Of a DNA stretch of 14,933 nucleotides, positions 470 to 11,277 are shown piece after piece. Below the pieces are notes generated by a model, which saw nothing but the letters and a program-made list of their open reading frames with translations, searched no databases and was not told the DNA's origin. How positions within the stretch are numbered: the stretch's first letter is position 1; every line of letters begins with the position of its first letter. A program made the translations under genes and the position numbers. The stretch comes from a virus: the UHGV virus genome UHGV-0050054; one strand, given 5' to 3'.

Positions 470-1093
470 TCACTGCTGCCCATACGCTTGGATGGCTTTC
501 TCAAATCCTGCTTGATCATCTGTCTGACCGTAACTAAAGCCATGCTGGAGACCATGACGAAACGCGCTATCCTGCAATTTGTCTGCGGCTTCTAGTTTCA
601 ACTCCAGCTCAGCAATCCGCTGTCTGGCCTCCTGTAACTCTTCAAACCATTGTTCTGAGTTGTCACGCATCTCGATAGCTTGCTCTTTCCAAGTGACGGG
701 CCAGAGTGGTCCGCAGCCATTCGGGCAAGGCTCTGTTTTACTGTCGCCTGCCGTAATAGTGCCAGCTACCATATTTATGCTGTTTTTCGTCAGGACGAAT
801 CCACATCCGGCGCAGCGCATGATCCCCGGAGCGATAACAGCCGATGACAGCTCAGCGATCCGCTTCTCTGCGGCTTCCAGCGCATTTACCAGATCATCAA
901 CGATTCCAGCAGATTGGCGTGCGTAATCTGTAATTGCCAGCTCGCATTCAATTTCAGTTCCGTTTTCGTTTGTGTGGCAAATAGCAAAGTAATCGGAGTC
1001 GATTTCGTTATCAGCCAAACGCCTCAGCGTGTCGGCAACCAGCACTCCGTTTTCAATCAGCATCTCTGTTGCGCGTTTGTTGATGTTGCTCAT
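470..1093 (-). CDS. Hypothetical early protein with coiled-coil segments and a Cys cluster (ead/Ea22-like, tentative)
   Basis: 207-aa ORF; GGAGG RBS 7 nt before ATG 1093; ATGA overlap with the upstream gene stop. Motif EAAEKRIAEL is shared with the adjacent 226-aa protein. Family assignment is from memory only. Confidence 0.6.
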   Translation of the reverse strand: MSNINKRATEMLIENGVLVADTLRRLADNEIDSDYFAICHTNENGTEIECELAITDYARQSAGIVDDLVNALEAAEKRIAELSSAVIAPGIMRCAGCGFVLTKNSINMVAGTITAGDSKTEPCPNGCGPLWPVTWKEQAIEMRDNSEQWFEELQEARQRIAELELKLEAADKLQDSAFRHGLQHGFSYGQTDDQAGFEKAIQAYGQQ

Positions 1094-1770
1094 TGGGCGG
1101 CCTCCTGGCGGTCTATGCGTTCAATTTCAGCCAGAATTAAAGCCCCTGCTTTTACCAGGTTGCGACGGCGGGCATTTGGCTTCCACCATGAAGCATCCCA
1201 AGGCCACCCCCACGGCTTGCCACCATTGCGGTTAACAGTTCCTGTTTCGTTTATGTAACAAACCGCCGCCATTGCCAGTTCCCCGTTGCAGTGTTCGTCA
1301 TCATGCTCTGGCATCCACCCCTCAACCGATTGTTGCCGCTGGCGCTCTGCTATCACATCCAGAATTGCAGGATTGAATGCACGCGCTTCCAGTTCTGCAA
1401 TGCGCTTCTCTGCTGCTTCACGCGCAACGCGCAGCTTCCCAACCGTAAGCGCAATATCCTCGTTCTCCTGGTCGCGGCGTTTGATGTATTGCTGGTTTCT
1501 TTCCCGTTCATCCAGCAGTGCCAAGACGGTAGCCGGATTGGCTGCGGCGATGAATTCAGCATTGGCCTGCTGTTCAGTTTGGAAATCTTCATCGAAACCG
1601 CTTTCAGGATGCGCTCCTTCAATTCTGCAAATGGGAATATATCCAGCAGCCTCGCGATGAATTAGCGCATCATCACCATCAAATCGGCCCTCTCCATATT
1701 CGAGCGACCATACACCACACGTTGCTTTTTCTGCCTTGGCACGCAGTGCCTGATAGTCAATCTTGTTCAT
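1090..1770 (-). CDS. Hypothetical early protein (226 aa), apparent paralog of 470..1093 (ead/Ea22-like, tentative)
   Basis: Complete ORF packed against neighbours; contains AAEKRIAELEARA and a Trp-rich C-terminus (KPWGWPWDASWWKP). Confidence 0.6.
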   Translation of the reverse strand: MNKIDYQALRAKAEKATCGVWSLEYGEGRFDGDDALIHREAAGYIPICRIEGAHPESGFDEDFQTEQQANAEFIAAANPATVLALLDERERNQQYIKRRDQENEDIALTVGKLRVAREAAEKRIAELEARAFNPAILDVIAERQRQQSVEGWMPEHDDEHCNGELAMAAVCYINETGTVNRNGGKPWGWPWDASWWKPNARRRNLVKAGALILAEIERIDRQEAAQ

Positions 1771-3368: not shown

Positions 3369-3851
3369 TTATTTGATAAGAAGTGAAGGTTTCCCAACTT
3401 TGAGTTGAGCGCCGGGGATATTTATTCCTGCTTTTAGTTGGTGTTTGATTGCCAGTTTGTCGGCTTTAATTGTCGTTTCAAACTCAACGTATTCAGGAGG
3501 AAGGGCGCTTGAGTCGATTATTTCTACAATTTCTGACGGTTTGCGGATTGTTACCTGGTGAATACCTGCTCTAATCTTTTTCTTGCCTACCATTTCAAGC
3601 GATGACGCTATATACGCCATAATGCTGTCAATCTTATTTTGAATTACTGCGGCTCGCTCATTTAGTGACTTTGCCTCTTCCTTGAGGCGTTCAGCATAAC
3701 CAGTTTCATTTTTAATGACGGAAAGAAGTTGCTCTATTTTATCGGTAAATTCTCCTTCCATGCCTTCTATTGTGTCAGCAATCATCTCTGGTTCTAAATC
3801 TGAATCCATCAATTTTGCGTATTCATTGGCAATTTCATATAGTTTGCTCAC
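3369..3851 (-). CDS. Phage protein, siphovirus Gp157-like (tentative); GTG start at 3851
   Basis: Track ORF 3369..3857; GTG at 3851 has GGAGG 6 nt upstream. Size and position directly downstream of recT fit the Gp157 family that often accompanies RecT/Erf; family call from memory. Confidence 0.6.
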   Translation of the reverse strand: MSKLYEIANEYAKLMDSDLEPEMIADTIEGMEGEFTDKIEQLLSVIKNETGYAERLKEEAKSLNERAAVIQNKIDSIMAYIASSLEMVGKKKIRAGIHQVTIRKPSEIVEIIDSSALPPEYVEFETTIKADKLAIKHQLKAGINIPGAQLKVGKPSLLIK

Positions 3852-4746
3852 TGGCAACCTCCAGTTTCGCTTTGCATTCTGCGTAAATGGCTTGTACGTT
3901 CTGCTGCAATTTCATTCCAGATGTCAGGCGATATGCTTCTGCAAAATATCGCTTCAAATCATCCATGTTTTCAGCCTGAGCCATTTCATCACAAAGAAGT
4001 TGTGCTTTATCCGTTATTTCCTGCTGGCGTTTCCGTTCATCTTCGCGGATATCTTCCTCTGATTTGTGCGGCATAACTGGTTCAGTCCACACACCTTCTT
4101 CTTCGTTTAGTACGTGAATAGCACTATCAAGACGTGATGCCTTAGGCCAATACTTGCTTGCACGCTTTACGACCGTCTTTCGCGCCATCTCATTCCAGTG
4201 ATTTACCCATGGTCCTTTATCGCTGAATGCCGCCTTGCTTGTTTTCCTTACAGCCTCAATTTCAGCCAGACTCATCTCTTCCGTTAGATAATCACCTGCT
4301 GGCGTCTTAACTGTGCAGTAAACGCCAACGATATCACCACGATCACCGAAGGCGTTGTATTTATGGGTTGGTGCTTTATCAAGCCCGTTTGACTCATAGG
4401 TATCGTTAGCATGAACAAGTTTTGCCTGACCCCATGAGATAACACCAGACTCCATTGCAATATGGAGCAATCCCATATAACTGATATCAAGGCACACCAT
4501 GCCGTCGCGCGGAACCAGATAAGCCAGTTTGCTAGCCGGGTTTAAGGTGATGCCGATCGCCGCTACATTGATGATGGCGTTCTGTGCGCTGGTTGGATTT
4601 GCCAGTGCTGTTTTAGCCAGGTAATCGTTTTTCTGGAAATACTGAATTGCAAACTGGCTTTCCTTAGCCCATGTCACCGTCTGTTCAGTCAATGCTCCGC
4701 AGAATAACTGCTCTTGCTGTTTAACGAATTCAACGATATTGCTCAT
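3835..4746 (-). CDS. recT: RecT-family single-strand annealing recombinase
   Basis: 303-aa ORF with GPWVNHWNEMARKTVVKRASKYWP, matching the conserved RecT core as I recall it from Rac RecT (GPWVTHWEEMAKKTAIRR...). GGAG RBS; ATGA overlap with the upstream gene. Confidence 0.85.
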   Translation of the reverse strand: MSNIVEFVKQQEQLFCGALTEQTVTWAKESQFAIQYFQKNDYLAKTALANPTSAQNAIINVAAIGITLNPASKLAYLVPRDGMVCLDISYMGLLHIAMESGVISWGQAKLVHANDTYESNGLDKAPTHKYNAFGDRGDIVGVYCTVKTPAGDYLTEEMSLAEIEAVRKTSKAAFSDKGPWVNHWNEMARKTVVKRASKYWPKASRLDSAIHVLNEEEGVWTEPVMPHKSEEDIREDERKRQQEITDKAQLLCDEMAQAENMDDLKRYFAEAYRLTSGMKLQQNVQAIYAECKAKLEVASEQTI

Positions 4747-5054
4747 GCAGCTTCTCCATAAATATGTCTGCGTTTGAATATTGCGAAGGCATATTCAGCC
4801 TTAACTCTTTCGGTTATTGCATCCCAGAACCATTCAGCGGCTTTTTCCTGATAGTTACAGTCATCATCTTCCAGCCAGTCGATAGCGTCCTTAGTGTGTT
4901 CATCTGGTTTATATGAGCGAAGCATTTCGCTTATTGGGTCGCAACGTTTGCAGAGACGATCAACTTCACTGTTGATTCGTTCGTAATCTTCATCGGTAAA
5001 ACTTGCGATGATTTGCGATATTTCACGCTTATCATTCAGAGTCAGAATCATCAT
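4743..5054 (-). CDS. Hypothetical protein (103 aa) in the position lambda gives to gam; no Gam similarity seen
   Basis: Complete ORF with AGGAG RBS, between kil-like and recT. Acidic, Cys-containing (CKRCD...DDDCNY). Confidence 0.6.
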   Translation of the reverse strand: MMILTLNDKREISQIIASFTDEDYERINSEVDRLCKRCDPISEMLRSYKPDEHTKDAIDWLEDDDCNYQEKAAEWFWDAITERVKAEYAFAIFKRRHIYGEAA

Positions 5055-5135: not shown

Positions 5136-5288
5136 TCATTTCCTGCGATACCACGGAAGGTTGATAGCTGATTTCATCGCTTTATTTGCTTCAAGCCACA
5201 TTTTGGAATCACCAATAAATCTGGCTATTACTGCTTTGTTCTGTGCAGCACGAAGCATCTGGTGATTGATGGCTATTTCATTGCGCAT
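5136..5288 (-). CDS. kil: Kil-like host cell-division inhibitor peptide (50 aa)
   Basis: Not in track (under 60 aa). Manual translation MRNEIAINHQMLRAAQNKAVIARFIGDSKMWLEANKAMKSAINLPWYRRK; the IARFIGDSKMWLEA core resembles lambda Kil as I remember it. GAGG RBS 8 nt upstream; overlaps the cIII-like ORF as kil and cIII overlap in lambda. Confidence 0.55.
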   Translation of the reverse strand: MRNEIAINHQMLRAAQNKAVIARFIGDSKMWLEANKAMKSAINLPWYRRK

Positions 5289-5404
5289 AATAAGACCTCA
5301 ACTCTTTTCCATCCGTCACGTAATTTACGGGTGATTCGTTCAAGTAAAGATTCATTTAGTTGGAAGGCACCCATGCGAGCGCCTCCCGCGATTGCGTAAA
5401 TCAT
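5273..5404 (-). CDS. cIII: cIII-like regulator peptide (43 aa)
   Basis: Not in track. Manual translation MIYAIAGGARMGAFQLNESLLERITRKLRDGWKRVEVLLCAMK; the ESLLERITRKLRDGWKR core matches the lambda CIII central helix as recalled. AAGGA RBS. Confidence 0.6.
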   Translation of the reverse strand: MIYAIAGGARMGAFQLNESLLERITRKLRDGWKRVEVLLCAMK

Positions 5405-5427: not shown

Positions 5428-6396
5428 TTAGTAGGTTATTTTTGTTGCGAATACTTCGCCTTTTACGATGGCTGTTATGATATTTTTAGCAACATCTTCT
5501 GATGCACCAACCTTGATAAGGTCAGCAAGTATTTTGTTATTTACTTCTTTCCGGTGAGCTTTATCCTTTGCTCTACGCTCTTCTTCTTCCTTGATTCTTT
5601 TTTCTTCTGCTATTCTGGCTTGCTCTTTTGCTTCAGCCTCGCGACGGATTCGTTCAGCCTCCTCCTGTGCTTTTCTGCGTTCTGCTTCAATTGCTGCCTG
5701 CTTTTCTCTTTCAGCTCGTTCTGCTGCCTCTTTTGCTTCGCGCTGTGCTCGCTGCTCGGCTTCAATGCGTTCACGCTCTGCACGTTCCGCTGCGGCCTTA
5801 GCTTCTGCTTCTCGCCTTGCTGCTGCTTCAATTTCGGCTTTTGCCTTTGCTTCGGCTTCTGCTCTGGCTTTCTCTTCAGCTTCTCTTTTTAAGCGTTCTT
5901 CATGCTCTCGCTTTTCCTGCTCCGCTTTGAGTCTTGCCTCTTCTCTTTGGCGGTCAAATTCGCGATCCATCAAAATAGCTATTTCATGGTCAGACTCAAT
6001 TTGCTTTGCGAGAGCTTCAGCTGCTGCCTTAGCTTCTTCTTCGGCTTTAATCCGCGCCTGTTCTTCCTCATAATCAGTAAGAGGCTGGCGTGCCTTGGCT
6101 TTCAGCTCATCAAGGCGATAACGCACTGTCTTGCGGTTGGCATCAATTAGCTTTGGAATTTCCTTCAGTTCAGCAACAAGGTCTTTGCCAAGACCATCGA
6201 GATATGTTTTCGTCTGCGCAACTTTATACGCCAGAGAAGCGATCTCTTTTCTGCCCTTTGCCGTTGTGATATCAGGCACAAAGGACATAACTTCACGTTC
6301 AACCTTTTGGAGAATTTCTTCAATCTGGTCAGCAGACTGAAATACAATCATTGCATTTGCTTTTTCAATAACAACTAAATCTGTTACTTCACTCAT
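5428..6396 (-). CDS. Hypothetical protein (322 aa) with a long E/R/K/A-rich predicted single alpha-helix
   Basis: Track ORF 5428..6450; preferred start ATG 6396 with GGAGG 4 nt upstream. About 150 residues are runs such as EAEAKAKAEIEAAARREAEAKAAAERAERE; globular-looking N- and C-terminal parts. Confidence 0.65.
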   Translation of the reverse strand: MSEVTDLVVIEKANAMIVFQSADQIEEILQKVEREVMSFVPDITTAKGRKEIASLAYKVAQTKTYLDGLGKDLVAELKEIPKLIDANRKTVRYRLDELKAKARQPLTDYEEEQARIKAEEEAKAAAEALAKQIESDHEIAILMDREFDRQREEARLKAEQEKREHEERLKREAEEKARAEAEAKAKAEIEAAARREAEAKAAAERAERERIEAEQRAQREAKEAAERAEREKQAAIEAERRKAQEEAERIRREAEAKEQARIAEEKRIKEEEERRAKDKAHRKEVNNKILADLIKVGASEDVAKNIITAIVKGEVFATKITY

Positions 6397-6408
6397 ATAT
6401 CCTCCGTC

Positions 6409-6435
6409 AAAAAAATCGCCCTCACATTGGAGGGC
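6409..6435 (-). terminator. Intrinsic terminator-like hairpin just upstream of the 322-aa gene RBS
   Basis: Minus strand reads GCCCTC-caatgt-GAGGGC followed by GATTTTTTTGA (6-bp GC stem, 7-nt T run). Confidence 0.55.
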
Positions 6436-6530
6436 AAAGAAGATTTCCAATAATCAGAACAAGTCGGCTCCTGTTTAGTTATGAGCGACATTGCTCCGTG
6501 TATTCACTCGTTGGAATGAATACACAGTGC

Positions 6531-6743
6531 TTATTCGCGAGCTTTGAGCATGGCATCAGCAATAAAGTAGGCATCATCTGCTAATTCTTTGTACTGTGGT
6601 GAATTCTGTCCACCGCCAAAGGAATGTCCGTCCCATCTGCGCACTATTGCTGCCATAGCCTTAGCAGCGAAGTAATCACGTAATGTCGCATCACTTGCCA
6701 TTTCTGGGCGTTTGATATCTGCTTCATAAAACTCGCACATCAT
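6531..6743 (-). CDS. Hypothetical protein (70 aa)
   Basis: Complete ORF; ATGA overlap with the upstream gene; GGGAGGTGA upstream. Confidence 0.5.
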   Translation of the reverse strand: MMCEFYEADIKRPEMASDATLRDYFAAKAMAAIVRRWDGHSFGGGQNSPQYKELADDAYFIADAMLKARE

Positions 6744-7018
6744 TCACCTCCCAGAGCCTTGCTGATTGCTGCCTTGGCTCGTTTGTATTCGGTTAACTCT
6801 CTGCACCCTTCGTCATGCTCGTAAAGGAAGACAAGCTCTTGCAGTGCTTCAAGCAAATCAGGAGCTGCTGCTATCAGTAGCGCATCCTCCCTTTCATTTC
6901 TTGTTGCTGCTTCAATGTATGTGTCACCAATCGTCACACCATGGAACGTAGTCATCATCTCGTTGACGTTTCTAACCGTGTACTTCCATTTACCAGGCGT
7001 ACCCTTAAACTCTTTCAT
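6740..7018 (-). CDS. Hypothetical protein (92 aa from ATG 7018; track gives GTG 7024)
   Basis: AGAGGTGG RBS about 6 nt before ATG 7018. Contains IAAAPDLLEALQELV. Lies just downstream of hairpin-box copy 1. Confidence 0.55.
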   Translation of the reverse strand: MKEFKGTPGKWKYTVRNVNEMMTTFHGVTIGDTYIEAATRNEREDALLIAAAPDLLEALQELVFLYEHDEGCRELTEYKRAKAAISKALGGE

Positions 7019-7026
7019 ATCCACCT

Positions 7027-7065
7027 CTGTTGTTTATGCCAAAAATAAAGGCCGACTATGCGGCC
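7027..7065 (-). terminator. Hairpin box copy 1, terminator-like on the minus strand
   Basis: Minus strand: GGCCG-catagt-CGGCC then TTTATTTTTGGCATAAACAACAG. Overlaps the stop of the 156-aa gene. Near-identical copy at 7570..7605. Confidence 0.5.
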
Positions 7066-7535
7066 TAGTAGAATACCCAATTTTCTGTTTCTTGGTTGTG
7101 TCCAAAGTTATATTCAATATCTGGTGTTGATGTATCAATATTCTTCATCCCATCAACAAGAGTTGATACAACAGCAAAATCTTGTTTGATTCTCATTAAA
7201 TGGTATTTCTTCCGGCGCAATAAACTCTCAATGGCAAGTTTCTTCGTTGGGAATGCAAAAGATCTTTCTGCATTTTTTGCTACTTTCTTAATTGCATATC
7301 TATTTCTCCTTTGTTTCCATTCCTGTAACCACTGATTTGGTGCTGGTTTAAAATCAACAATCCAATGCGCAGGAACCAACCATGCATAATGCTCTGTCTG
7401 ATGAAAAGCTATATATTGAAGTGCGAATATTTTGATTCCATCTTCTTCAACTGTCGCCTGGAATCTCCAGAAAACAGGCATTCCATCATGTTCAGTTTCT
7501 GATTCAGGAAAAGGTACGCTCCATGATTTTGTCAT
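7065..7535 (-). CDS. Hypothetical protein (156 aa) encoded in a low-GC cassette
   Basis: Complete ORF with GAGGTGAGAT RBS; visibly AT-richer than neighbours; basic central region (KQRRNRYAIKKVAKNAERSF...LLRRKKYHLMRIKQ). No family recognised. Confidence 0.6.
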   Translation of the reverse strand: MTKSWSVPFPESETEHDGMPVFWRFQATVEEDGIKIFALQYIAFHQTEHYAWLVPAHWIVDFKPAPNQWLQEWKQRRNRYAIKKVAKNAERSFAFPTKKLAIESLLRRKKYHLMRIKQDFAVVSTLVDGMKNIDTSTPDIEYNFGHNQETENWVFY

Positions 7536-7569
7536 ATCTCACCTCAAATAATTCAGTGCAGTGTTTATT

Positions 7570-7605
7570 CTGTTGTTTATGCCAAAAGAAGGCCGACTAT
7601 GCGGC
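7570..7605 (-). repeat. Hairpin box copy 2 (slightly degraded copy of 7027..7065)
   Basis: CTGTTGTTTATGCCAAAAGAAGGCCGACTATGCGGC differs from copy 1 at 2-3 positions; 4-bp stem and a weaker T run. Lies between the Cys-rich ORF and the 156-aa ORF. Confidence 0.45.
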
Positions 7606-7615
7606 ATAATTATTT

Positions 7616-7804
7616 TTAACTATCATCAATACATGGCACTTTATTCCAGTCGATATCGTTTTTATTGTCGTCCCACATGTCTTTGTTTTTGTATTTCTCG
7701 CTACATCCTAGGCAAATGTTGTATGGCCTACCGATAAGGTTTAACGAAATACGTTGCATTTCATTTGATTCAAACATGTATCCACAGAACTGACATTTAT
7801 GCAT
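7616..7804 (-). CDS. Small Cys-rich protein (62 aa), putative zinc ribbon
   Basis: CxxC at residues 4-7 and 31-34; starts 4 nt after the N stop with GAGGGGTGAG upstream; low-GC like the adjacent 156-aa gene. Confidence 0.55.
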   Translation of the reverse strand: MHKCQFCGYMFESNEMQRISLNLIGRPYNICLGCSEKYKNKDMWDDNKNDIDWNKVPCIDDS

Positions 7805-7807
7805 ATC

Positions 7808-8140
7808 TCACCCCTCATACAGTAGCTTACTGCCTAATTTCATTTTCTGGCGACCAACACAAGTCACACCCATTTCACTGCGTGGCTTGCTGTACCATGT
7901 GCGCTGATTCTTGCGCTCAATACGTTGCAGGTTGCTTTCAATCTGTTCGTGGTATTCAGCCAGCACCGTAAGGTCTATCGGATTCAGTGCGCTTTCTACT
8001 CGTGATTTAGGCTTTCGAGTCAGCGAGAGAATTTTGCGGGTGTCTGGCTTTGCGCTTACCCCAACCAACAGGGGATTTGCTGCTTTCCATTGAGCCTGTT
8101 TCTCTGCGCGACGTTCGCGGCGGCGTGTTTGTGCATCCAT
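7808..8140 (-). CDS. N: Antitermination protein N
   Basis: 110-aa product MDAQTRRRERRAEKQAQWKAANPLLVGVSAKP... matches lambda N as recalled over most of its length, including the Arg-rich N-terminus; AGGAG RBS; nutL upstream. Confidence 0.9.
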   Translation of the reverse strand: MDAQTRRRERRAEKQAQWKAANPLLVGVSAKPDTRKILSLTRKPKSRVESALNPIDLTVLAEYHEQIESNLQRIERKNQRTWYSKPRSEMGVTCVGRQKMKLGSKLLYEG

Positions 8141-8632: not shown

Positions 8633-9292
8633 TTAACTAAATGTCTCTTCAGGCCACTGGCTGGCGATAACTTTCCCTACTACGGAACAGCTATCATTGC
8701 ATGGAATCATTGGATATTGCTGGTTTAGTGGCTGTAGGAACACCTGACCGCTATCCCTGATCAGTTTCTTGAAGGTAAACTCGTCACCACCAAGTCTGGC
8801 TATGCAGAAATCACCTGGCTCAACAGCCTGCTCAGGGTCAACGAGAATTAACATCCCGTCAGGAAAGCTTGGCTTGGATCCTGTTGGCGCGGTCATGGAA
8901 TTACCTTCAACTTCAAGCCAGAACGCACAATCACTGGCTTTTTTGGTTGTGCTGACCCATCTCTCCGCATCACCTTTGGTAAAGGTTCTAAGCTCAGGCG
9001 AGAACATCCCGGCCTGAACATGAGAAAAAACAGGGTACTCATATTGTTTTTTAACGGGGGCAGATGAGTATTCGCCAACAGGTGAAAATGTACCGTCGTG
9101 GTTGAATGAGACGTTATCAATACCAAGGTATTTAAACACCACACCAATCTCGTCAAGAGATGGATGACGAGATCCGCGCAACCAGTGACCAATTCCACCC
9201 TGCGTCATACCAAGCTCTTCAGCTAACTTCTCTTGAGTTATGCCGAGCTCTTTCATTCTGGATCTAGCCAGTTCATACCATTTCATTTTCAT
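8633..9292 (-). CDS. cI: CI-type prophage repressor (N-terminal HTH, C-terminal LexA/S24-like domain)
   Basis: C-terminal half ([38 protein letters not shown]...[28 protein letters not shown]...[11 protein letters not shown]) matches lambda CI as recalled, apart from a few substitutions; the N-terminal HTH differs from lambda. Track ORF begins at a TTG (9334); ATG 9292 or 9286 is more likely. Confidence 0.9.
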
Positions 9293-9301
9293 ACCCTTAT
9301 T

Positions 9302-9375
9302 ATTACGCTCTGTACTAAAACCATCCATGCACAAGATGTATTTTTTGTTTGCATTCTAAAAGTACATATCGTATT
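9302..9375. promoter_or_regulatory. Putative OR operators
   Basis: ATTACgctctGTACT at 9302..9316 and AGTACatatcGTATT at 9361..9375, 60 bp apart; the second overlaps the PR spacer and -10. Confidence 0.4.
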
Positions 9376-10329: not shown

Positions 10330-11277
10330 ATGAGCAATACAGCAAAAATCTACGATTTCAGCGCCGCACACGAGCGCAGGAGCAACAGGATGGAGAACCA
10401 GAAAACTGGTTACATTCCGTTGTACCGGAGCATTCTGAAACAGTCATGGGCGAAAGATGTTTATCTTCGCACCCTGTGGGAAAACCTTCTCCTGAATGCC
10501 GCCAGAAAGCCATACAAAGCGAATTTCAAAGGTCATGAATGGCATCTGCAACCCGGTCAACTGGTTGTGACAGCAGCTGATTTAGGTCTTCAGTTATGCG
10601 ACAGGCATGGCAAGCCGGCAAGCCGTGATCAGGTTGAGCGGATGCTTCAGGTTTTTGTGAAAGAGGGGATGATCACCATTGATGGAGAGAAGCAAAAAGG
10701 TCGTGTGATCACCATCACAAATTACCATGAATATGCTCAAAAAATGGACAATTCACCCGCACATGAAGCCGCACAAACAACCGCACATGATGCCGCACAT
10801 GATGAAGCCAGTAATGGCGCGGCTTTCAGCGTACATACCGCACATGAAAGCGCACATGAAGCCGCACAAACAACCGCACATCATGAACAAGAAGGTATTA
10901 ACAAGAATATAAATAATACCCCCCTACCCCCCAATGGGGGAGGCGATGGGCAGGTTAAACATGAACGTCGCAAGGCAGAACGAATCGACTACGAATCCTT
11001 CCTGAACGCCTACAACACCGAAGTCGGTGACAGACTGCCACACGCTGTTGCGGTCAACGAGAAACGCAAACGCCGCCTGAAGAAAATCATCCCGCAACTG
11101 AAAACGCCAAACGTGGACGGTTTCAGAGCGTATGTCAGGGCGTTTGTGCATCAGGCCAAGCCGTTTTACTTCGGAGACAACGACACTGGCTGGACGGCAG
11201 ATTTTGATTACCTGCTGAGGGAAGATTCGTTAACGGGAGTTCGGGAAGGGAAGTTTGCAGACAGGGGGATTGCATGA
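10330..11277 (+). CDS. Replication initiator, lambda O-like N-terminus, with internal iteron origin
   Basis: 315-aa product; [10 protein letters not shown] resembles lambda O MTNTAKILNF; repeated [10 protein letters not shown] segments coincide with DNA iterons; stop overlaps the helicase start. Confidence 0.85.
10758..10945. repeat. Putative replication origin: iterons, AT-rich tract, GC-rich hairpin
   Basis: Identical 31-bp blocks at 10758..10788 and 10851..10881; at least 5 GCACATGA motifs; AT-rich 10886..10918; CCTACCCCCC-AAT-GGGGGAGG hairpin at about 10925..10945. Same layout as lambda ori inside O. Confidence 0.6.

What the first reader, a model, noticed from the sequence alone, without database searches (positions are those of the whole stretch)
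5428..6396. 322-aa protein with a roughly 150-residue E/R/K/A-rich helix
The middle of the protein is made of imperfect EAEAKA/ERAERE-type repeats, mirrored by low-complexity GCTTC/GCTGC repeats in the DNA. This composition is typical of single alpha-helix spacers or coiled coils. It lies between cIII and the cassette, with a terminator-like hairpin touching its RBS. Automated pipelines often label such proteins TolA-like on composition alone.
Basis: seen in the sequence. Interest (0 to 1): 0.5.

Follow-up and report, generated by a model that had tools for sequence, protein, structure and literature searches.

The report
Phage Agt-family long single-helix protein
This prophage gene encodes two small conserved end domains joined by a stiff charged helix about 20-30 nm long; databases mislabel it TolA, but it belongs to a large, barely studied phage family (phi80 Agt) that sits beside the phage recombination genes.

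Summary
Window 5428-6396 (minus strand) is an intact 322-aa gene in the N-dependent early-left operon of a lambdoid prophage. A tL2a-type terminator ends four bases before its RBS, and cIII lies just downstream.

Residues about 108-283 are E/A/R/K-rich. Residues 151-283 carry a strong i/i+4 salt-bridge pattern and no hydrophobic seam, so this is an ER/K single alpha-helix, not a coiled coil. AlphaFold2 models one continuous helix from 81 to 295.

It is not TolA: it has no membrane anchor, no TolA C-terminal domain, and only a composition-driven match.

The gene is about 98% identical to Sf6 gene 33 and occurs in 530 of 5426 complete E. coli genomes. It is a collinear homolog (55% identity) of phi80 agt, annotated "anti-toxin for Gam".

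The N-terminal domain defines a family of at least 5,597 50%-identity clusters with no Pfam model. Members keep the same three-part build, usually ending in Tyr or Phe.

Across Escherichia, Pseudomonas and Acinetobacter phages the gene lies within about 0-500 nt of the strand-annealing protein gene, whichever family that is. GamL is absent here and from 80/80 close relatives.

Best reading: a recombination-module accessory/tether protein. This is a known, poorly characterised family, of moderate interest.

The parts
5428..6396 (-). Complete CDS, 322 aa plus stop. Agt/Mog-family protein, equivalent to Sf6 gene 33, IME10 Orf53 and HK544/mEp213 hypothetical proteins.
   Evidence: ORF; 97-99% nt identity over 100% of the query in 35 phage records; present in 530/5426 complete E. 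coli genomes; 55% identity, collinear with phi80 agt.
6076..6396 (-). N-terminal helical domain, residues 1-107. A short probable strand (residues 5-11) is followed by helices 12-20, 22-38 and 46-76 and the start of the long helix at 81.
   Evidence: AF2 models, (pLDDT 80-95 from residue 20 onward). The domain profile A5 finds 5,597 cluster representatives at E<=1e-3.
6067..6282 (-). Most conserved core, residues 39-110 (PDxxTxKGRxxIASxAxKVxxxKTxxDxxGKDLV...K...D..R...R..LD......R.PLT.(W/Y)E). It is basic, pI 9.8 here and a median of 9.2 in the family. Probable binding surface.
   Evidence: Mean top-residue frequency is 0.71 across 112 representatives from <=50%-identity clusters. R49, G70, R88, P105 and E110 are 100% conserved.
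5947..6075 (-). Acidic transition part of the long helix, residues 108-150. It includes the DHE..(L)LM...FDR motif conserved in enterobacterial members.
   Evidence: alignments. (pI 4.35). (helical, pLDDT >90).
5548..5946 (-). ER/K-type single alpha-helix core, residues 151-283, about 20 nm long. This is where the in-frame length variation occurs.
   Evidence: salt-bridge statistics, no heptad seam, net charge 0. (continuous helix 81-295). (indels giving 206-333 aa proteins in near-identical relatives). (low-complexity DNA).
5431..5547 (-). C-terminal mini-domain, residues 284-322 (H-R-K-x-hN...L...G..E..A...h.AI..G.h....I.Y), ending in a conserved aromatic residue.
   Evidence: 112 of 125 full-length representatives end in Y or F. 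H281 88%, Y322 90%. AF2 gives helix 300-311 and a low-confidence tail. The only outside similarity is sub-threshold, to RuvA domain III / UBA-like helix hairpins.
6400..6405 (-). Ribosome-binding site GGAGGA, 3 nt before the ATG.
   Evidence: Read directly from the sequence.
6409..6437 (-). Intrinsic terminator: stem-loop 6437-6416 plus T7 at 6415-6409. It is the homolog of lambda/Sf6 tL2a. Expression of the gene therefore depends on N antitermination of the pL transcript.
   Evidence: scan. (Sf6 annotation of the equivalent site). The N homolog lies at 7808-8140.
5273..5404 (-). cIII, immediately downstream (context).
   Evidence: PHROG 550, E=1.6e-20. It follows the gene in 80/80 close relatives.
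5136..5288 (-). kil (context).
   Evidence: PHROG 2055, E=1.2e-35.
3369..5054 (-). Recombination module downstream in the same operon: orf103 of unknown function (4743-5054), RecT-type strand-annealing protein (3835-4746), and a Gp157/Mu-Gam-like end-protection protein (3369-3857).
   Evidence: PHROGs 3486, 148 and 253. Pfam Sipho_Gp157, 1.8e-36.

Best explanation
The gene encodes a cytoplasmic, delayed-early phage protein of the Agt/Mog family.

Build. A conserved, basic N-terminal helical domain and a roughly 40-residue C-terminal mini-domain ending in an aromatic residue are held apart by one long alpha-helix of about 215 residues (about 32 nm). The core of that helix (residues 151-283) is an ER/K single alpha-helix, stabilised by i/i+4 salt bridges and not by coiled-coil packing.

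Proposed role. I propose it is an accessory component of the phage recombination (Rec) module. It would act by binding, not catalysis. The two end domains would engage two partners: a conserved one, either DNA or a host DNA-end-processing factor such as RecBCD or SbcCD, and a second protein. The helix would serve as a semi-rigid spacer or tether. The protein would thereby tune how host double-strand-end nucleases and the phage's own end-protection and annealing proteins act on replicating phage DNA. In phi80 this shows up as neutralising the toxicity of the nuclease inhibitor GamL.

What is shown: the gene, its architecture, the single-helix character, family membership, synteny with Rec modules, and the transcriptional setting.

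What is inferred: the binding partners, the spacer role, and the link to nuclease control.
For: Architecture: AF2 mean pLDDT 85, helix 81-295; N-domain model.

Single alpha-helix: 53 versus 24.7 +/- 3.8 i/i+4 ion pairs, a/d hydrophobic occupancy <=0.25, net charge 0.

Homology to phi80 agt, annotated 'anti-toxin for Gam / Mog (modifier of Gam)' and sitting next to gamL annotated 'toxic without Mog': tblastn 9e-14 on the N-domain alone, record annotation, and a 55% collinear alignment that includes both end domains.

Family size and conserved three-part build.

Synteny with Rec modules regardless of annealing-protein family:
- Sf6-type loci: 73/80 have ERF or RecT, median 508 nt away.
- Pseudomonas loci: 80/80 (41 Bet, 39 ERF), median 37 nt.
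- Acinetobacter loci: 74/80 (Bet), median 11 nt.
- Marine/Vibrio loci: 11/14 have an annealing protein or an exonuclease.
- Ten individually inspected relatives (phi80, Klebsiella ST15-VIM1phi2.1, JBD44, phiV208, Serratia Eta, Sf6, GF-2, vB_EhrS_49, TCUAN1, ZP9) and this window all show the same arrangement.

When GamL is present, the agt stop and the gamL start are 11 nt apart in 30/30 loci.

Purifying selection: the ORF is intact at 322 aa in 71/80 close relatives. The core 39-110 has near-invariant basic and acidic residues across <=50%-identity clusters.

Expression: the gene lies behind a tL2a-type terminator in the N-antiterminated pL operon.

From my own recollection of the abstract of Rotman et al. 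2012, J Bacteriol 194:6802 (not retrievable here): GamL inhibits RecBCD and SbcCD, agt is its 'antidote, apparently encoding a modifier protein', and phi80 lysogens behave as recD and sbcCD phenocopies.
Against: - No experiment exists on this protein or on any GamL-less member.
- This window and 80/80 close relatives lack GamL, so the one known genetic function cannot apply literally.
- Conversely, 44 of 74 GamL loci lack any Agt-family gene within 4 kb. This weakens the idea of an obligate pairing.
- Early-left operons are compact, so some proximity to Rec genes would arise from operon layout alone. Loci within each set are close relatives and are not independent observations.
- No sequence or fold match supports DNA binding or any particular partner. 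The RuvA-domain-III-like signal in the C-domain is below significance.
- Large in-frame deletions of the helix are tolerated in nature, down to 206 aa. This argues against a strict ruler length.
Confidence: 0.5

Rival explanations
1. It is a dedicated antitoxin or modifier of a Gam-like RecBCD inhibitor, exactly as annotated for phi80 Agt. It would bind and temper the phage's own nuclease inhibitor, and this is its only role.
For: phi80 record annotation. 55% collinear homology. An invariant 11-nt agt-gamL junction in 30/30 loci where both genes occur, plus the same order in Klebsiella phage ST15-VIM1phi2.1.
Against: There is no GamL homolog in the window or in any of the 80 closest loci, where the anti-RecBCD genes are Abc2 (70-74/80) or Gp157/MuGam-like (3/80). 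Pseudomonas and Acinetobacter members sit directly against Bet or ERF with no GamL detected. 44/74 GamL loci carry no Agt gene. It remains possible that the protein tempers other, unrelated inhibitors (Abc2, MuGam-like). That case merges into the best explanation.
Confidence: 0.2
2. It is a TolA-like cell-envelope protein, as most automated annotations state. It would be a membrane-anchored helical protein spanning the periplasm, perhaps interfering with Tol-Pal or with superinfection.
For: The PGAP and GenBank product names 'cell envelope biogenesis protein TolA', 'TolA protein' and 'colicin import membrane protein'. Its composition resembles TolA domain II.
Against: BLASTP against E. coli K-12 TolA gives E=0.27 for the single comparison, over a 60-residue low-complexity stretch only. 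K-12 TolA hits Pfam TolA_C at 2e-38, while this protein has no Pfam hit at E<=1. No TolA model appears in NCBIfam. The maximum 19-residue Kyte-Doolittle hydropathy is 1.07, against 2.45 for the TolA anchor, so there is no transmembrane segment or signal peptide.
Confidence: 0.02
3. It is a self-associating structural protein. It would form either a parallel or antiparallel dimeric coiled coil or a head-to-tail polymer, with the N-terminal strand and domain of one chain capturing the C-terminal aromatic tail of another. Such a scaffold or filament could organise phage replication and recombination.
For: Residues 1-10 and 312-322 are the only low-confidence parts of the monomer model. Both look strand-like, and both are conserved (L7 89%, I320 86%, Y322 90%). 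This is what would be expected for segments that fold only on a partner. Residues 108-150 retain some hydrophobic periodicity (a/d occupancy 0.38-0.5).
Against: The 133-residue core has almost no hydrophobic residues, so it cannot form a canonical coiled coil. No multimer prediction or co-evolution test could be run here. The idea rests on indirect hints only.
Confidence: 0.15
4. It is an anti-defence or decoy protein, or a trigger of host immunity, that merely travels in the early-left accessory region and has no role in recombination.
For: It lies in the mosaic accessory stretch between N and cIII, where ral and other host-takeover genes sit. It is widespread and of unknown function.
Against: There is no PADLOC match. 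Unlike typical accessory genes, it keeps a fixed position next to the annealing-protein gene in unrelated phage lineages, and its core is unusually well conserved. Its neighbours upstream vary freely while cIII and the Rec genes downstream do not.
Confidence: 0.1

Closest known systems
Phage phi80 (Lula) Agt / Mog, 'anti-toxin for Gam' (NC_021190 29843-30811, YP_007947961)
   Same: Both are 322 aa, 55% identical and collinear over all three parts. They share the MSEVTDL start, the PD..T.KGR..ASLA core, the R.PLT.WE..EQ.RIKAEE junction, the DHE..LLM..FDR motif, an ER/K helix, and an ADLI..G..E.A...AI..G.V...I.Y tail. Both lie in the N-dependent early-left operon upstream of a RecT-type recombinase.
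   Different: In phi80 the gene directly precedes gamL, and its known phenotype is relief of GamL toxicity. This window has no GamL. cIII, kil and an unknown 103-aa gene separate it from recT, and the end-protection gene is Gp157/MuGam-like.
Shigella phage Sf6 gene 33 protein and its near-identical copies in HK544, Sf101, mEp213/234/043, IME10 (Orf53), CUS-3 and Stx1a phages
   Same: 97-99% nucleotide identity over the full gene. The tL2a terminator upstream and cIII downstream are the same.
   Different: None in the protein itself. These copies are uncharacterised, and most sit upstream of Erf/SSB/Abc2 modules instead of RecT/Gp157. CUS-3 carries a 1-nt insertion that splits the gene.
TolA domain II (E. 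coli Tol-Pal system)
   Same: A long Ala/Glu/Lys-rich helical region. This shared composition is the source of the database name.
   Different: TolA has an N-terminal membrane anchor and a C-terminal TolA_C domain, works in the periplasm, and is encoded in the tol-pal operon. None of these apply here.
ER/K single alpha-helix (SAH) domains of eukaryotic proteins (myosin VI/X lever extensions, caldesmon, MAP4K4 and others); named from general knowledge
   Same: A run of more than 100 residues of E, R, K and A with alternating charge blocks, strong i/i+4 ion pairing and no hydrophobic seam. It connects two folded modules, as SAH spacers do.
   Different: This one is bacteriophage-encoded, unusually Ala-rich (26%), and has no homology to those proteins. 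The resemblance is structural and compositional only. Monomeric behaviour in solution has not been tested.
P22 Abc1 and Arf: accessory recombination proteins of unknown mechanism encoded inside Rec modules (PMC12315714, section 12)
   Same: Non-catalytic proteins of unknown mechanism encoded in or next to lambdoid Rec modules.
   Different: No sequence relationship. The Pfam Phage_Arf hit came from one Pseudomonas member only (E=0.0084, below the cut-off), and the P22 Arf sequence shows no obvious resemblance to the C-domain by eye.

Membership tests
phi80 Agt/Mog family (Sf6 gp33-like; PHROG 1376) | Significant full-length, collinear sequence homology to phi80 Agt | tested here: met
   tblastn with the N-domain alone hits phi80 agt at 9e-14. 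The pairwise alignment is 55% identical over 322 aa, including both end domains. PHROG 1376 matches full length at 5.4e-109.
phi80 Agt/Mog family (Sf6 gp33-like; PHROG 1376) | Three-part architecture: conserved N-domain, long charged helix, and a roughly 45-aa C-domain ending in an aromatic residue | tested here: met
   AF2 model. Of 125 full-length representatives, 112 end in Y or F, with a median length of 333 aa and charged helical middles.
phi80 Agt/Mog family (Sf6 gp33-like; PHROG 1376) | Located in the early operon next to the recombination module | tested here: met
   In the window, cIII, kil, orf103, RecT and Gp157 follow on the same strand. Family-wide synteny is shown.
phi80 Agt/Mog family (Sf6 gp33-like; PHROG 1376) | Adjacent gamL gene whose toxicity it relieves (the only phenotype on record) | tested here: not met
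   No GamL homolog in the window (best E=0.10 against orf103) or in 80/80 close relatives. The functional antidote activity cannot be tested with these tools.
TolA (Tol-Pal system protein) | N-terminal transmembrane anchor (domain I) | tested here: not met
   Maximum 19-residue hydropathy is 1.07, against 2.45 for K-12 TolA residues 14-32.
TolA (Tol-Pal system protein) | C-terminal TolA domain III (Pfam PF06519) | tested here: not met
   No Pfam hit at E<=1. K-12 TolA scores 2e-38 in the same search type.
TolA (Tol-Pal system protein) | Sequence homology beyond composition; tolQRA-tolB-pal gene context | tested here: not met
   BLASTP gives E=0.27, with a low-complexity 60-residue segment only. 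The context is a lambdoid early-left operon, against the tolQ-tolR-tolA-tolB order in K-12.
ER/K single alpha-helix (SAH) class (a structural class, not a homology family) | Long helix rich in E/R/K with enriched i/i+4 opposite-charge pairs and no a/d hydrophobic seam | tested here: met
   (z about 7 against shuffles; a/d occupancy 0.12-0.25). (continuous helix, pLDDT 70-96).
ER/K single alpha-helix (SAH) class (a structural class, not a homology family) | Monomeric, stable isolated helix in solution | not testable with these tools
   This needs circular dichroism with thermal melts plus SEC-MALS or AUC on residues about 108-283.
Canonical dimeric coiled coil | Heptad repeat with hydrophobic a/d positions | tested here: not met
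   In residues 151-283 there are 8 Leu/Ile residues out of 133, and the best-register a/d occupancy is <=0.25. Residues 108-150 are ambiguous (0.38-0.5).
RuvA domain III / UBA-like helix hairpin (C-terminal mini-domain) | Significant profile match to RuvA_C | tested here: inconclusive
   PDB 1ixs E=0.19. Pfam RuvA_C matches 2 of 18 members, best E 0.0069, below the cut-off. hhalign against K-12 RuvA residues 160-187 gives probability 12% and P=0.0024.

The most novel reading that the evidence does not exclude
The Agt family would be an unrecognised, near-universal fifth component of Rec modules in temperate phages of Gammaproteobacteria. It has at least 5,600 clusters at 50% identity, no Pfam model, and is mislabelled TolA. 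In this reading its 20-30 nm ER/K single helix acts as a physical tether or ruler. The conserved basic N-domain would dock on a conserved host DNA-end machine (RecBCD, SbcCD) or on DNA itself. The aromatic-tipped C-domain would recruit or restrain a second partner. This would explain both the relief of GamL toxicity in phi80 and the persistence of the family in phages that lack GamL. It would be one of very few functional single alpha-helix spacers described in bacteria or phages.
Probability: 0.3. Interest if true: 0.6.

Novelty: new member of a known kind. Interest (0 to 1): 0.35.

Why it matters
The practical value is a correction. Thousands of database entries, including those in about 10% of complete E. 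coli genomes, call this protein 'cell envelope biogenesis protein TolA', and that label fails every defining test for TolA.

Biologically, the family is one of the commonest uncharacterised genes of lambdoid early-left operons. It keeps station beside the recombinase gene across Escherichia, Klebsiella, Serratia, Pseudomonas, Acinetobacter, Vibrio and Shewanella phages.

If it does modulate host double-strand-end nucleases or the phage's own inhibitors, three consequences follow:
- It would add a missing part to the phage Rec-module model.
- It could matter for recombineering toolkits, where Gam toxicity is a known practical nuisance.
- It would give a bacterial-virus example of an ER/K single-helix spacer whose length varies naturally.

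None of this overturns current understanding. It is an ordinary but under-annotated phage gene.

Tried and rejected
- Pfam, NCBIfam and PADLOC scans of the full protein gave nothing meaningful. PHROGs gave only 'unknown function' families.
- phmmer/hmmsearch of the N-domain sequence, the N-domain profile and the C-domain profile against PDB sequences gave nothing below E=0.04.
- Phage_Arf lead: one Pseudomonas C-domain hit Pfam Phage_Arf (E=0.6, then 0.0084 for the isolated domain). No other member did, and the P22 Arf sequence looks unrelated. Rejected as chance.
- orf103 (4743-5054), in the position that GamL occupies in phi80, is not a GamL homolog by BLASTP and has no Pfam hit.
- The assumption that GamL always needs Agt was rejected: 44/74 GamL loci lack it.
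- True DNA tandem repeats are not present. There are only weak period-6, period-15 and period-18 arrays.
- Literature: the primary phi80 paper (Rotman 2012) is not held. The papers that cite it, and the 2025 survey of 325 lambdoid Rec modules, do not discuss this protein. Searches for 'TolA' plus prophage, and for gamL/agt terms, found nothing relevant.
- The plus-strand ORFs overlapping the region (5554-5892, 5591-6073 and others) are mirror artefacts of the low-complexity coding strand.
Full report
**1. What is there**

The window is the early region of a lambdoid prophage. Reading leftward on the minus strand, it carries:
- a cI-type repressor (8633-9334) and an N homolog (7808-8140);
- a mosaic set of small genes (6531-7804);
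- the gene in question (6396-5428);
- cIII (5404-5273) and kil (5288-5136);
- an unknown 103-aa gene, a RecT-type annealing protein (4746-3835), and a Sipho_Gp157/Mu-Gam-like protein (3857-3369).

The 322-aa ORF starts at the ATG at 6396, 3 nt after a GGAGGA site. A hairpin at 6437-6416 followed by seven T residues ends four bases before that RBS. In phage Sf6, where the gene is 97.7% identical, the same element is annotated as terminator tL2A by homology to lambda. The gene therefore belongs to the N-antiterminated pL transcript.

**2.

- Residues 108-283 are 80% E/A/R/K.
- The core 151-283 has E40 A35 R25 K16, net charge zero and eight aliphatic residues.
- It has 53 opposite-charge i/i+4 pairs, against 24.7 +/- 3.8 in shuffles. 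i/i+3 pairs are not enriched.
- Charge autocorrelation is negative at lag 4 and positive at lag 8.
- The best heptad register places hydrophobic residues at no more than 25% of a/d positions.

This is the signature of an ER/K single alpha-helix, not a coiled coil. AlphaFold2, run with a 23-sequence alignment, gives mean pLDDT 85. It models short helices at 12-20, 22-38 and 46-76, then one uninterrupted helix from 81 to 295 (about 32 nm), then a small C-terminal element. Only residues 1-3 and 315-322 fall below pLDDT 50.

The DNA reflects the composition. GCTTC and GCTGC are about 10-fold enriched in the central part, but there is no true tandem array.

**3. It is not TolA**

Most records call it 'cell envelope biogenesis protein TolA'. 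Compared with E. coli K-12 TolA:
- the only similarity is a 60-residue low-complexity stretch, with E=0.27 for the single comparison;
- TolA matches Pfam TolA_C at 2e-38, while this protein matches nothing in Pfam at E<=1;
- the TolA anchor has hydropathy 2.45, against a maximum of 1.07 here.

**4. What family it is**

The gene is 97-99% identical at the nucleotide level to Sf6 gene 33 and to unnamed genes of HK544, Sf101, mEp213/234/043, IME10, CUS-3 and Stx1a phages. It is present in 530 of 5426 complete E. coli genomes.

A tblastn search with the N-terminal 113 residues finds 200 phage records in Vibrio, Pseudomonas, Klebsiella, Erwinia, Yersinia, Shewanella, Acinetobacter, Serratia, Edwardsiella and Aeromonas phages. 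These include phi80 gene agt.

It annotates the next gene, gamL, as 'gam-like host nuclease inhibitor; toxic without Mog'. The two proteins are both 322 aa, 55% identical and collinear across all three parts.

A profile of the N-domain, run over 1.84 billion cluster representatives, finds 5,597 proteins at E<=1e-3, of which 962 are at E<=1e-30. The domain is almost always at the N-terminus, and the median protein length is 333 aa. Of 125 full-length representatives, 112 end in Tyr or Phe after a recognisable C-terminal motif.

Conservation is concentrated in residues 39-110. The mean top-residue frequency there is 0.71 across clusters at <=50% identity, and R49, G70, R88, P105 and E110 are invariant. 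This segment is basic, with a median pI of 9.2. The helix keeps its composition but not its sequence.

There is no Pfam model, no solved relative and no informative fold match. The C-domain shows only sub-threshold resemblance to RuvA domain III / UBA-like helix hairpins. I treat this as a lead, not a result.

**5. Length variation and integrity**

Near-identical E. coli copies range from 206 to 333 aa through in-frame deletions and duplications confined to the helix. One example is an 11-residue RERIEAEQRAQ duplication. Others are 22-, 47- and 77-residue deletions, and one 206-aa form retains both end domains.

The 322-aa form dominates: 71 of the 80 closest viral loci have it intact, and seven carry frameshifts or truncations at different positions. 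CUS-3 has a 1-nt insertion that splits the gene. PHROGs 17211 and 21365 match the two halves and probably come from such split gene calls.

**6. Genomic company**

Within the Sf6-type clade the upstream neighbours vary (ral, gene 34, other small genes), but cIII always follows (80/80). An annealing protein is found in 73/80 loci, and Abc2 in 70-74/80. No locus has GamL.

| Clade | Loci with an annealing protein | Median distance |
|---|---|---|
| Sf6-type (Escherichia) | 73/80 (ERF or RecT) | 508 nt |
| Pseudomonas | 80/80 (41 Bet, 39 ERF) | 37 nt |
| Acinetobacter | 74/80 (Bet) | 11 nt |
| Marine/Vibrio | 11/14 (annealing protein or exonuclease) | - |

In the Pseudomonas loci an exonuclease is also present in 78. 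Ten relatives inspected individually, and this window, agree with this picture.

So the gene is a companion of Rec modules whichever annealing-protein family they use. Two caveats apply. Loci within a set are close relatives, and early operons are compact. The signal therefore rests on a handful of independent lineages.

Starting from GamL instead, only 30 of 74 loci have an Agt gene upstream, always with the same 11-nt junction, and 44 have none within 4 kb. The GamL pairing is thus real but partial in both directions. It cannot explain the family, or this gene.

**7. Mechanism**

*Shown:*
- a cytoplasmic, non-enzymatic-looking protein;
- two conserved end modules separated by a single-helix spacer of about 20-30 nm;
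- delayed-early expression;
- fixed association with recombination genes;
- one homolog annotated as modifying a RecBCD/SbcCD inhibitor.

*Inferred:*
- the protein works by binding;
- the basic, near-invariant N-domain recognises something common to all these hosts, either DNA or a host end-processing machine;
- the C-domain, with its terminal aromatic residue, engages a second partner;
- the helix sets the distance or reach between them.

The net effect would be to tune nuclease inhibition and end protection during phage replication and recombination. I put this at about 0.5.

*Rivals:*
- a strictly GamL-type antitoxin (0.2; contradicted by the absence of GamL);
- a self-associating scaffold, hinted at by the two strand-like, low-confidence, conserved termini (0.15);
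- an unrelated anti-defence accessory gene (0.1; no PADLOC match);
- TolA (0.02; fails all tests).

**8. Novelty and verdict**

The gene is long catalogued (Sf6 gene 33, D3 Orf53-like), and its family has one genetically studied member. It is therefore a new member of a known, poorly characterised kind.

The 2025 survey of 325 lambdoid Rec modules does not mention this family in its text sections on Rec-module and other early-left proteins that I read or term-searched (PMC12315714). I could not retrieve the primary phi80 paper. What I say about its content beyond the GenBank annotation is from memory.

Interest is moderate. The finding corrects a widespread misannotation and points to a testable accessory role for a very common phage protein, but nothing about it is anomalous.

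Noticed in passing
Loci L095-L174 (IMG/VR loci holding phi80-GamL homologs): Only 30 of 74 GamL loci with enough upstream sequence carry an Agt-family gene, always with an 11-nt junction. The other 44 have none within 4 kb. This sits oddly with the phi80 record's note that gamL is 'toxic without Mog'.
   Followed up: partly
Loci L175-L254 (Pseudomonas JBD44-type): The same Agt clade (92-100% identical N-domains) lies directly upstream of Bet in 41 loci and of ERF in 39. The partner annealing protein has therefore been swapped while Agt stayed in place.
   Followed up: partly
L001 3001-3970 (phage CUS-3); PHROGs 17211 and 21365: The CUS-3 copy is 970 nt and is annotated as two CDS. Two PHROG families match exactly the N-terminal 115 and the C-terminal 212 residues, so they probably derive from such frameshifted or split gene calls and not from real separate genes.
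   Followed up: partly
window 5431-5547 (C-terminal mini-domain): There is sub-threshold similarity to RuvA domain III / UBA-like helix hairpins: PDB 1ixs E=0.19; Pfam RuvA_C in 2 of 18 members; hhalign against K-12 RuvA 160-187 P=0.0024 with probability 12%. This is suggestive in a recombination context but not significant.
   Followed up: partly
window 10757-10802 and 10837-10881: Two blocks of 12-nt tandem units (CCGCACATGAAG, about 3.8 copies each) lie inside the O-like replication initiator gene (10330-11277). They encode a His/Ala-rich repeated peptide and are probably the origin iterons, as in lambda.
   Followed up: no
window 470-1093 (-) and 1090-1770 (-): Two adjacent early-left ORFs of unknown function share the peptide AAEKRIAEL(E) within predicted helical stretches. 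This could reflect a shared module or partial duplication.
   Followed up: no
window 6531-6743 (-), orf70: Its tail motif LRDYFAAKAM...ADAML.ARE recurs in small genes upstream of gamL in unrelated loci (L103, L128, L147). It matches only the C-terminal part of PHROG 2201, so it looks like a mobile small-gene or domain fragment of the accessory region.
   Followed up: no
window 5554-5892, 5591-6073, 5628-5801, 5902-6150 (+ strand): Long plus-strand ORFs opposite the gene translate to Ser/Phe/Cys/Leu-rich nonsense. They are mirror artefacts of the low-complexity coding strand, not genes.
   Followed up: yes
window 4743-5054 (-), orf103: This 103-aa gene occupies the slot immediately upstream of recT that gamL holds in phi80. 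It has no GamL, Pfam or PADLOC similarity (PHROG 3486, unknown function). It travels with the RecT/Gp157 module in the 3 related loci that have that module.
   Followed up: partly
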